From the NCBI RefSeq assembly GCF_003334255.1, contig NZ_QOWU01000021.1: 64,000 nucleotides of DNA, one strand, 5' to 3'. Below, piece after piece: positions 23,704 through 24,075 of the stretch (the first letter of the stretch is position 1; each line of letters opens with the position of its first letter). This DNA comes from Escherichia coli. Its GTDB lineage: Bacteria > Pseudomonadota > Gammaproteobacteria > Enterobacterales > Enterobacteriaceae. The translations under genes and the position numbers were made by a program. The notes under the pieces were generated by a model. That model saw only the letters and a list, made by a program, of their open reading frames with translations. It did not search any database and was not told the DNA's origin.

Positions 23704-24075
23704 ATTTGAAATAAACTAATTTCACCTCCGTTTTCGCATTATATTTTCTAATGCCATTATTTTTTGATTTAGTGTTTTTTGACATTTTTTTAGCTCTTAA
23801 TATTGTCTTATTCAAATTGACTTTCTCATCACATCATCTTTGTATAGAAACTGGTGTATTTTTTGGTTTTTTATTCTGTCGCGATTTTTGCATTTTTTAA
23901 CCATAAGCTAATGTGATGATCAATTTTACCTTATGGTTAACAGTCTGTTTCGGTGGTAAGTTCAGGCAAAAGAGAACGATTGCGTTGGGGACCGGGAGTG
24001 GCTCCGATGCTGGGTTTCGTGGTGATAATTTCACCATGAAAAAGTTGTCAGCCCCGCTTATTCAATGAGGACAAG

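What the first reader, a model, noticed from the sequence alone, without database searches (positions are those of the whole stretch)
23897..23987. Inverted repeat and PurR-box-like motif in the gcvT control region
The 447-bp AT-rich region upstream of gcvT contains an 11-bp inverted repeat, TTAACCATAAG-N22-CTTATGGTTAA (23897-23940), whose spacer holds CTAAT-type motifs, and a sequence gaacgattgcgt (23973-23984) resembling a PurR operator half-site. gcvTHP is known to be controlled by GcvA, Lrp, PurR and CRP; these could be the corresponding sites.
Basis: partly seen in the sequence, partly recalled or inferred. Interest (0 to 1): 0.2.

Follow-up and report, generated by a model that had tools for sequence, protein, structure and literature searches.

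The report
Known GcvA and PurR sites at gcvT promoter
The inverted repeat and the PurR-like motif are real, but they lie in the well-studied E. coli K-12 gcvTHP promoter: the repeat brackets the known GcvA repression site and the -35 element, and the motif is the known PurR operator, so this is ordinary.

Summary
The window's ubiI-gcvT spacer (23629-24075) is 100% identical to E. coli K-12 MG1655, so this is the published gcvTHP control region.

**Observation.** About 0.9% of shuffles give one as long. The PurR-like string is 1 nt off: it is 23974-23985.

**PurR box.** The string is the 3' part of the 16-bp box AAGAGAACGATTGCGT (23970-23985). Cho et al. 2011 assign this box to an adenine-dependent PurR ChIP-chip peak at gcvTHP. 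It overlaps the transcription start and is conserved across Enterobacterales.

**Inverted repeat.** It coincides with GcvA binding site 1:
- The left arm runs into the LysR-type T-N11-A box carrying CTAAT (23904-23916).
- The right arm contains the -35 hexamer TGGTTA.

The palindrome itself is not what is conserved. In 71 genomes anchored on the PurR box, the outer 5 bp pair only in the 3 Escherichia sequences (the window and 2 others). No compensatory changes occur. Erwinia, Pantoea, Serratia and Hafnia keep the right block but lack the left one.

**Other regulators.** CRP, Lrp and GcvA sites 3 and 2 map upstream of the finding.

**Verdict.** Already known, low interest. The GcvA footprint coordinates come from my memory of the primary papers, which I could not open.

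The parts
23650..23665 (.). CRP-type site TTTGA-N6-TCACA (context, outside the finding)
   Evidence: The sequence was read. It is also found in Escherichia and Citrobacter, and in 3 other loci (E. cloacae, E. asburiae and an unclassified MAG), at the same distance from the PurR box. Its centre, 23657.5, equals -313.5 if +1 = 23971. That matches my recollection of Wonderling & Stauffer 1999, which I could not open.
23700..23757 (+). GcvA sites 3 and 2, the upstream activation sites, each with a CTAAT (23716-23720 and 23748-23752)
   Evidence: Oliver 2016 reports a 57-bp protected stretch. The coordinates -271 to -214 are from memory. The site 3 CTAAT lies at a fixed 254/255 bp from the PurR box in 70 of 72 genomes. 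The site 2 CTAAT is present in 25 of 72.
23897..23907 (.). Left arm of the inverted repeat, TTAACCATAAG (about -74 to -64)
   Evidence: The inner CATAAG is 93% conserved. For the outer TTAAC, other genera match the E. coli base at only 44% of positions; most have TTGGT.
23902..23937 (+). GcvA binding site 1 (footprint -69 to -34, taking +1 = 23971)
   Evidence: The 35-bp protected length comes from Oliver 2016's summary of Wilson 1995. The coordinates are from memory. The RegulonDB GcvA matrix hits 23906-23935. The conserved blocks start and end at these limits.
23904..23916 (+). LysR-type T-N11-A box TAAGCTAATGTGA holding CTAAT (23908-23912). In most genera it is flanked as TCAT-N11-ATGA, with its centre near -61.
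   Evidence: The motif definition is quoted in PMC3658693. The CTAAT lies exactly 62 bp upstream of the PurR box in 63 of 72 genomes, while the 5'UTR length varies.
23930..23940 (.). Right arm of the inverted repeat, CTTATGGTTAA (about -41 to -31). It contains the -35 hexamer TGGTTA (23934-23939).
   Evidence: CTTATGGTT is nearly invariant across Enterobacterales. This includes Serratia, Hafnia, Rahnella, Erwinia and Pantoea, which lack the left block.
23954..23962 (+). Extended -10 element TGgTAAGTT, 17 bp downstream of the -35 hexamer
   Evidence: Mendoza-Vargas 2009 Table S1 gives the -10 as cggtGGTAAGTTcagg, with '-10 ext (TG)' = yes, for known promoter gcvTp. It is 92% conserved.
23968..23971 (+). 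Transcription start of gcvTp
   Evidence: The 454-mapped start is 108 nt from the ATG (23968) and lies 3 nt from the RegulonDB gcvTp. The value 23971 also fits the remembered CRP and PurR coordinates. 23965 is not formally excluded.
23970..23985 (+). PurR operator AAGAGAACGATTGCGT (about -1 to +15)
   Evidence: Cho 2011 Table 1 assigns it to the gcvT-gcvH-gcvP peak, which was bound only with adenine. The RegulonDB PurR matrix hits it. The leave-one-out matrix score is 15.7 bits. It is conserved in 72 of the 80 fetched loci by a strict pattern, and a similar box is present in the rest.
24076..25170 (+). gcvT coding sequence, first gene of gcvTHP
   Evidence: ORF list and RefSeq annotation.

Best explanation
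This is the core of the E. coli gcvTHP promoter with two known repressor-binding elements.

**Promoter.** It is a sigma-70 promoter with a weak -35 (TGGTTA, 23934-23939), a 17-bp spacer and an extended -10 (TGgTAAGTT, 23954-23962). Transcription starts at about 23968-23971.

**GcvA site 1.** The LysR-type regulator GcvA binds site 1 (about 23902-23937). It recognises the T-N11-A box that carries CTAAT (23904-23916), and its footprint runs into the -35 hexamer. Without glycine, or with purines, the GcvA/GcvR complex occupies site 1 and the upstream sites 3 and 2. Lrp bends the DNA in between. The resulting loop, together with occlusion of the -35, represses transcription. With glycine, GcvR leaves and GcvA at the upstream sites activates.

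**PurR operator.** PurR bound to hypoxanthine or guanine sits on the 16-bp operator 23970-23985. This straddles the start site and blocks RNA polymerase.

**The palindrome.** The 11-bp inverted repeat is made of two separately conserved elements: the 5' edge of the GcvA box and the -35 block. Its perfect outer 5 bp are specific to Escherichia and are probably fortuitous.

**Shown here:** identity to K-12, motif positions, conservation and fixed spacing, the PurR ChIP-chip assignment and the transcription-start data.

**Inferred or taken from the literature:** the footprint limits, the loop model and -35 occlusion.
For: - **Identity.** The spacer is 100% identical to MG1655 and is present once in all 5426 complete E. 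coli genomes.
- **PurR.** Cho 2011 list an adenine-dependent PurR ChIP-chip peak at gcvTHP with this exact 16-mer. The PurR matrix score is 15.7 bits, with 0.25 such hits expected per window. The box is conserved across genera.
- **GcvA.** The literature summary gives 35-bp and 57-bp protected regions and the CTAAT motif. The GcvA consensus is T-N11-A containing CTAAT. The RegulonDB GcvA matrix scores the 30-mer 23906-23935 at 17.96, close to the 19.44 scored by the gcvB-associated 30-mer in the same table.
- **Fixed spacing.** The site 1 CTAAT is exactly 62 bp from the PurR box in 63 of 72 genomes. The site 3 CTAAT is 254/255 bp away in 70 of 72. The distance to the ATG varies from 62 to 177 bp.
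- **Promoter.** The transcription start and extended -10 come from Mendoza-Vargas 2009.
- **Within-species conservation.** The 96-bp core 23895-23990 is identical in 5059 of 5426 E. coli genomes. Only 991 are at least 99% identical over the whole spacer.
- **Published regulation.** Reference titles say site 1 is needed for repression, not activation (ref 48). The GcvA/GcvR/Lrp repression loop is summarised in PMC13104608.
Against: - I could not open the primary footprint papers. The limits -69/-34, -271/-214 and -313.5, and the PurR footprint, are from memory. They are supported only by their fit to motif positions and to the protected lengths quoted.
- The start site is uncertain by a few nt: 23965, 23968 or 23971. 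With 23965, the site 1 footprint would cover the left arm and spacer but barely touch the right arm.
- The ChIP-chip peak interval in Cho's table lies about 90 bp upstream of the box, and the printed motif coordinates are a 432-bp range. The assignment therefore rests on the motif.
- CTTATGGTT is far more conserved than a non-consensus -35 hexamer needs to be. My model does not fully explain this.
Confidence: 0.9

Rival explanations
1. The full 11-15 bp palindrome is itself a functional unit. It would be the symmetric operator of a dimeric regulator, either GcvA in a special mode or another protein, that contacts both arms centred near -52/-53.
For: The repeat is longer than chance in this region (9 of 1000 shuffles). 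It extends to 14/15. It is invariant in 93% of E. coli genomes. The inner CATAAG/CTTATG pair is present in 57 of 71 genomes.
Against: The outer 5 bp are complementary only in the 3 Escherichia sequences (the window and 2 others). Other genera show 0-4 matches of 5, mostly 1-2, which is near chance. No compensatory changes occur. The spacer part of the 15-nt arms (TTAC) is variable. The right block persists in Erwiniaceae, Yersiniaceae and Hafniaceae, which lack the left block. The arms therefore evolve independently. The whole 96-bp core is equally invariant in E. coli, so invariance is not specific to the repeat.
Confidence: 0.06
2. The repeat acts as a nucleic-acid structure: a hairpin in an RNA reading through from ubiI, or a cruciform in supercoiled DNA.
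For: As single-stranded DNA the segment folds at -7.3 kcal/mol, z = -2.95 against shuffles.
Against: It lies upstream of the gcvT start site and downstream of the ubiI terminator hairpin at 23671-23696 (I7). The stem is A+T-rich with a 22-nt loop and has no T-run (one search found no terminator). No Rfam family matches. There is no covariation between the arms.
Confidence: 0.02
3. The repeat is a chance feature of an A+T-rich spacer with no function, and the PurR-like string is a chance match.
For: Short inverted repeats are common in A+T-rich DNA. The outer half of the repeat is not conserved.
Against: The inner blocks, the CTAAT and the PurR box are 86-96% conserved across genera, against about 50-65% for the flanks. 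Their spacing is fixed. ChIP-chip and RegulonDB matrices mark both sites.
Confidence: 0.02

Closest known systems
GcvA binding site 1 of the E. coli gcvTHP promoter (Wilson, Urbanowski & Stauffer 1995; Wonderling, Urbanowski & Stauffer 2000)
   Same: It is the same locus and the same sequence (100% identical to K-12). It has the T-N11-A box with CTAAT and a protected length of about 35 bp abutting the -35. It is reported as required for GcvA/GcvR-mediated repression.
   Different: Nothing differs in substance.
PurR operators of the purine regulon (consensus ACGNAAACGTTTGCNT), specifically the gcvTHP site in Cho et al. 2011 and Wilson, Stauffer & Stauffer 1993
   Same: It is the identical 16-mer AAGAGAACGATTGCGT, with the central CG and a near-perfect right half. 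Occupancy is adenine-dependent. It overlaps the start site, as in other PurR-repressed promoters.
   Different: The left half is degenerate: 5 of 8 positions match the ideal palindrome. Its score falls in the lower quarter of the ChIP-defined sites. This fits the modest PurR effect reported for gcv (from memory).
Generic LysR-type promoter architecture (recognition site near -65, activation site near -35)
   Same: There is a conserved dyad, TCAT-N11-ATGA, centred near -61, plus a second conserved block over the -35.
   Different: At gcvTHP, published genetics assign activation to far-upstream sites 3 and 2 (about -271 to -214) and repression to the promoter-proximal site. Lrp acts as an architectural partner and GcvR as a co-repressor.

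Membership tests
GcvA (LysR-type) binding site | T-N11-A box containing 5'-CTAAT-3' | tested here: met
   TAAGCTAATGTGA lies at 23904-23916. The definition is quoted from the Stauffer laboratory in PMC3658693, and the CTAAT motif in PMC5002191.
GcvA (LysR-type) binding site | Lies inside the DNase I-protected region of the gcv control region (site 1, -69 to -34) | tested here: inconclusive
   Only the protected length of 35 bp could be read. The coordinates are from memory, and the primary papers are not held. With +1 = 23971 the footprint is 23902-23937, which matches the conserved blocks exactly.
GcvA (LysR-type) binding site | Match to a weight matrix built from curated GcvA sites | tested here: met
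   A RegulonDB matrix scan in Mendoza-Vargas 2009 Table S4 scores CATAAGGTAAAATTGATCATCACATTAGCT at 17.96. This is the reverse complement of 23906-23935. The site was probably in the training set.
GcvA (LysR-type) binding site | Conserved sequence and position in species that have GcvA | tested here: met
   The CTAAT is at a fixed 62 bp from the PurR box in 63 of 72 genomes. The block CATAAGCTAATGTGATGA is 86-93% conserved.
GcvA (LysR-type) binding site | GcvA binding and loss of regulation on mutation | not testable with these tools
   This is known only from the title of Wonderling et al. 2000 in reference lists.
PurR operator | 16-bp imperfect palindrome with a central CG that matches the PurR matrix | tested here: met
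   The leave-one-out matrix from 27 ChIP sites gives 15.7 bits, third best in 64 kb, with 0.25 hits expected by chance. The RegulonDB PurR matrix scores it 10.44.
PurR operator | In vivo occupancy by PurR that depends on the purine co-repressor | tested here: met
   Cho 2011 Table 1 lists a gcvT-gcvH-gcvP peak of 1.06 with adenine and none without. The tiling-array peak is offset by about 90 bp from the box.
PurR operator | Position that can block transcription (overlapping the promoter or start site) | tested here: met
   The box is at 23970-23985 and the mapped start at 23968-23971.
Symmetric (palindromic) operator formed by the two 11-bp arms | Both arms are conserved together, with complementarity maintained across species | tested here: not met
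   The outer 5 bp are complementary only in the 3 Escherichia sequences of 71. No compensatory changes occur. The right arm is conserved without the left in Erwiniaceae, Yersiniaceae and Hafniaceae.
Glycine riboswitch or other RNA element in the gcvT leader | Match to an Rfam covariance model | tested here: not met
   Nothing passed a meaningful threshold in 23550-24150 or in 11 related loci.

The most novel reading that the evidence does not exclude
The promoter-proximal block CTTATGGTT(A/T)A is the right arm of the repeat. It is nearly invariant across the Enterobacterales loci examined, including families that lack the CTAAT half of site 1. That is much more conservation than a non-consensus -35 hexamer requires. 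It could be an unrecognised protein contact. One possibility is an activation-type GcvA half-site used when GcvA activates. In Serratia, Hafnia and some Erwinia and Pantoea it forms a perfect TTAAC-N5-GTTAA dyad. On this reading the CTAAT 'repression' half of site 1 would be a later addition in Enterobacteriaceae.
Probability: 0.15. Interest if true: 0.3.

Novelty: already known. Interest (0 to 1): 0.08.

Why it matters
This adds little to what is known. The result confirms that a blind sequence reader correctly picked out two experimentally characterised operators of a textbook promoter.

The comparative data add three small refinements:
- The palindrome itself is not under selection.
- The spacing between GcvA sites 3 and 1 and the PurR box is rigid across genera, which fits the published looping model.
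- The site 1 recognition half is confined to Enterobacteriaceae, whereas the -35 block, the PurR box and site 3 are found in all the families sampled.

Tried and rejected
- **Primary papers.** I tried to open the footprint papers: Wilson 1995 (PMC177269 and PMID 7665470), Wonderling 1999 (PMC93593) and Shi 2024 (PMC11081524). None are held.
- **Text searches.** Searches for the footprint coordinates failed or returned noise. Searches for the site 1 sequence on either strand found only coincidental matches.
- **Further start-site data.** Kim 2012 supplements have no entry. Conway 2014 supplements and Thomason 2015 are not held. The Cappable-seq paper was blocked by the paper cap.
- **RNA element.** No Rfam match was found, including no glycine riboswitch, in the window or in 11 related loci. 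I rejected this reading.
- **Hairpin or terminator.** I rejected this too: the repeat is upstream of the start site, it has no T-run and the arms show no covariation.
- **TTAAC-N5-GTTAA dyad over the -35.** I tested whether this is conserved order-wide. It is perfect only in 6 of the fetched loci (7 if a one-base variant of the right half-site is counted). It is 4/5 in E. coli and poor in most Enterobacteriaceae (my first count there was offset by one base). I did not adopt it.
- **Table S4 positions.** The relative positions printed in Mendoza-Vargas Table S4 could not be reconciled with the gene labels. I used only the sequences and scores.

Full report
**What the region is.** The finding lies in the 447-bp spacer between ubiI (visC) and gcvT. 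The flanking ORFs are pepP, ubiH, ubiI, gcvT, gcvH and gcvP. The spacer (window 23629-24075) is present once in every one of 5426 complete E. coli genomes. It is 100% identical to K-12 MG1655, where MG1655 coordinate = 3,074,743 minus window position. Everything published on the K-12 gcvTHP control region therefore applies base for base.

**Check of the observation.** TTAACCATAAG (23897-23907) and CTTATGGTTAA (23930-23940) are perfect reverse complements 22 nt apart. The complementarity extends to 14 of 15 positions: 23897-23911 / 23926-23940. In 1000 dinucleotide-preserving shuffles of the spacer, only 9 contained a perfect inverted repeat of 11 bp or more with a 3-40 nt loop. The spacer has 35.8% G+C against 51.5% for the window. 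It holds three CTAATs on the + strand, at 23716, 23748 and 23908, and no ATTAG. About 0.7 would be expected on one strand. The PurR-like string is at 23974-23985, one base off the stated coordinates. It is the 3' three-quarters of a complete 16-bp box, AAGAGAACGATTGCGT (23970-23985).

**The PurR box.** Cho et al. 2011 (PMC3159470) mapped PurR by ChIP-chip. Their Table 1 lists a gcvT-gcvH-gcvP peak that was seen only with exogenous adenine (log2 ratio 1.06). They assigned it exactly this 16-mer. I built a weight matrix from their other 27 sites. The gcvT box scores 15.7 bits, above 6 of the 27 training sites. It is the third best hit on either strand of the 64-kb window, with 0.25 hits that good expected by chance. 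The RegulonDB PurR matrix also hits AAAGAGAACGATTGCGTTGG. Of the 80 Enterobacterales gcvT loci I fetched, 72 have the box by a strict pattern. It mostly appears as AAGAGAACGTTTGCGT or AAGGTAACGTTTGCGT. The remaining 8 (Serratia, Hafnia, Rahnella, Rouxiella, Erwinia and one Enterobacter) have a similar box, such as GGGTATCGTTTGCG, in the same place.

**The promoter.** Mendoza-Vargas et al. 2009 (PMC2760140, Table S1) mapped a 454 5' end 108 nt upstream of the gcvT ATG, which is window 23968. They list the -10 as cggtGGTAAGTTcagg, flag an extended -10 TG, and class it as the known sigma-70 promoter gcvTp, 3 nt from the RegulonDB start. This gives:
- -10: TAAGTT at 23957-23962, preceded by TG at 23954-23955
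- -35: TGGTTA at 23934-23939, the best candidate at a 17-bp spacing
- curated +1: 23971 or 23965

I favour 23971 because it makes my recollected literature coordinates fit the motifs. A CRP-type site, TTTGA-N6-TCACA, at 23650-23665 is then centred at -313.5. The PurR box spans -1 to +15. The three CTAATs fall inside GcvA sites 3, 2 and 1 (with the CRP coordinates corrected). These literature coordinates are from memory. I could not open the primary papers.

**The inverted repeat and GcvA site 1.** Oliver et al. 2016 (PMC5002191) summarise Wilson et al. 1995. GcvA protects stretches of 35 bp and 57 bp upstream of gcvTHP, and these share a CTAAT motif that mutagenesis showed to be important for binding and for negative regulation. 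The Stauffer laboratory defines the site as T-N11-A containing CTAAT. In the window that box is TAAGCTAATGTGA (23904-23916). It starts inside the left arm, and its CTAAT is the first five bases of the 'spacer'. The RegulonDB GcvA matrix scores the 30-mer 23906-23935 at 17.96, close to the 19.44 scored by the gcvB-associated 30-mer in the same table. With +1 = 23971, the remembered footprint of -69 to -34 is 23902-23937. It runs from the C of CATAAG to the T of ATGGT, so it ends inside the -35 hexamer. The left arm is therefore the upstream edge of the GcvA recognition box. The right arm is the promoter-proximal end of the footprint plus the -35 element.

**Comparative test.** I anchored 71 sequences (the window and 70 of the fetched loci) on the PurR box without gaps. 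The conserved blocks are:

| Block | Window coordinates | Mean conservation |
|---|---|---|
| CATAAG | 23902-23907 | 0.93 |
| CTAATGTGATGA | 23908-23919 | 0.87 |
| CTTATG | 23930-23935 | 0.96 |
| GTTAA | 23936-23940 | 0.88 |
| TCGGTGGTAAGTTCAGG | 23950-23966 | 0.92 |
| PurR box | 23970-23985 | 0.95 |

The segments between these blocks, and the flanks, score 0.54-0.66.

The site 1 CTAAT sits exactly 62 bp upstream of the PurR box in 63 of 72 genomes. The site 3 CTAAT sits 254 or 255 bp upstream in 70 of 72. The distance from the box to the ATG ranges from 62 to 177 bp. This rigid spacing is what the published GcvA/GcvR/Lrp looping model predicts; PMC13104608 summarises that model.

The palindrome is not what is conserved:
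- The outer five bases of the arms are complementary only in the three Escherichia sequences. Other genera mostly have TTGGT on the left and GTT(T/A)A on the right, giving mostly 1-2 matches of 5.
- No compensatory change is seen.
- The TTAC that extends the right arm to 15 nt lies in a variable segment.
- Pantoea, Erwinia, Winslowiella, Serratia, Hafnia, Rahnella and Rouxiella keep CTTATGGTTAA, the extended -10, the PurR box and the site 3 CTAAT. They have no CATAAGCTAATGTGATGA block.

The two arms therefore evolve independently.

**Variation within E. coli.** The core 23895-23990 is identical in 5059 of 5426 genomes. Only 991 are at least 99% identical over the whole spacer, and 973 fall to 90-95%. 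The variation is concentrated at about 23740-23895. From memory, that is the Lrp-binding region.

**Rival readings.**
- An RNA or DNA structure is unlikely. The repeat is upstream of the start site and downstream of the ubiI terminator hairpin (23671-23696). It is A+T-rich with a 22-nt loop and no T-run. It folds only to -7.3 kcal/mol as DNA. It matches no Rfam family.
- A symmetric operator made of both arms fails the co-conservation test.
- Pure chance is excluded for the inner blocks and the PurR box by conservation and ChIP evidence. Chance remains the best account of the outer five base pairs of the palindrome.

**Mechanism, with status.**
- Shown here: sequence identity to K-12, motif positions, conservation and spacing, the PurR ChIP assignment, and the transcription-start and -10 data.
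- Taken from the literature: GcvA binds sites 3, 2 and 1. Site 1 is needed for repression and not activation (title of Wonderling et al. 2000). GcvR is a glycine-released co-repressor, and Lrp bends the intervening DNA.
- Inferred: GcvA/GcvR at site 1 occludes the -35 hexamer that lies in the right arm, and PurR at -1 to +15 blocks polymerase binding or escape.

**Verdict.** Lrp and CRP bind further upstream. The feature is already known, so interest is low. The one open point is why CTTATGGTT is so strongly conserved across all the families sampled.

Noticed in passing
window 23702-23785, - strand: RefSeq annotates a 27-codon small ORF here, yqfI (b4754 in MG1655). It is antisense to gcvT and lies on top of GcvA sites 3 and 2 and the start of the Lrp region. 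In other E. coli it is called 'hypothetical protein', and in strain DCE7 it is shorter.
   Followed up: partly
window about 23740-23895: This part of the spacer is unusually polymorphic within E. coli. 973 of 5426 genomes are only 90-95% identical over the 447 bp, while the adjacent 96-bp core promoter is identical in 93% of genomes. From memory, the variable part corresponds to the Lrp-binding region.
   Followed up: partly
window 43408-43423, - strand: ACGTAAACGGTTGCTT is a strong PurR-type box: 19.0 bits, the second best hit in the window. It is absent from the ChIP-chip table of Cho 2011. It lies in or near the start of a minus-strand ORF (41928-43505) that diverges from a 644-aa ORF (43797-45731). 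Two other top hits, at 58982 and 44089, are the listed ygfK-ssnA and ygfT sites.
   Followed up: no
window 23370-23385, + strand: ACTGAAACGGTTGCAT is a PurR-like box of 14.4 bits. It lies inside the ubiI coding sequence, about 600 bp upstream of the gcvT operator.
   Followed up: no
window 23779-23806, + strand: The best sigma-70-like match of the spacer (TTGACA, 16 bp, TATTGT; 10 of 12) lies inside the A+T-rich upstream region, about 165 bp upstream of gcvTp. It is not a documented promoter as far as I could see.
   Followed up: no
window 23995 and 24015-24041: Mendoza-Vargas 2009 list a second, single-read 5' end 81 nt upstream of the gcvT ATG. The leader also contains an 11-nt inverted repeat with 10/11 complementary, TTTCGTGGTGA / TCACCATGAAA, with a 5-nt loop (I6). 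The leader sequence and length vary greatly between genera.
   Followed up: no
loci L067-L082 (Erwinia, Pantoea, Serratia, Hafnia, Rahnella, Rouxiella), about 60-200 bp upstream of gcvT: These genera keep the -35 block (often as a perfect TTAAC-N5-GTTAA dyad), the extended -10, a PurR-type box and the far-upstream CTAAT at the same spacing. They lack the CTAAT half of GcvA site 1. None has a glycine riboswitch.
   Followed up: partly
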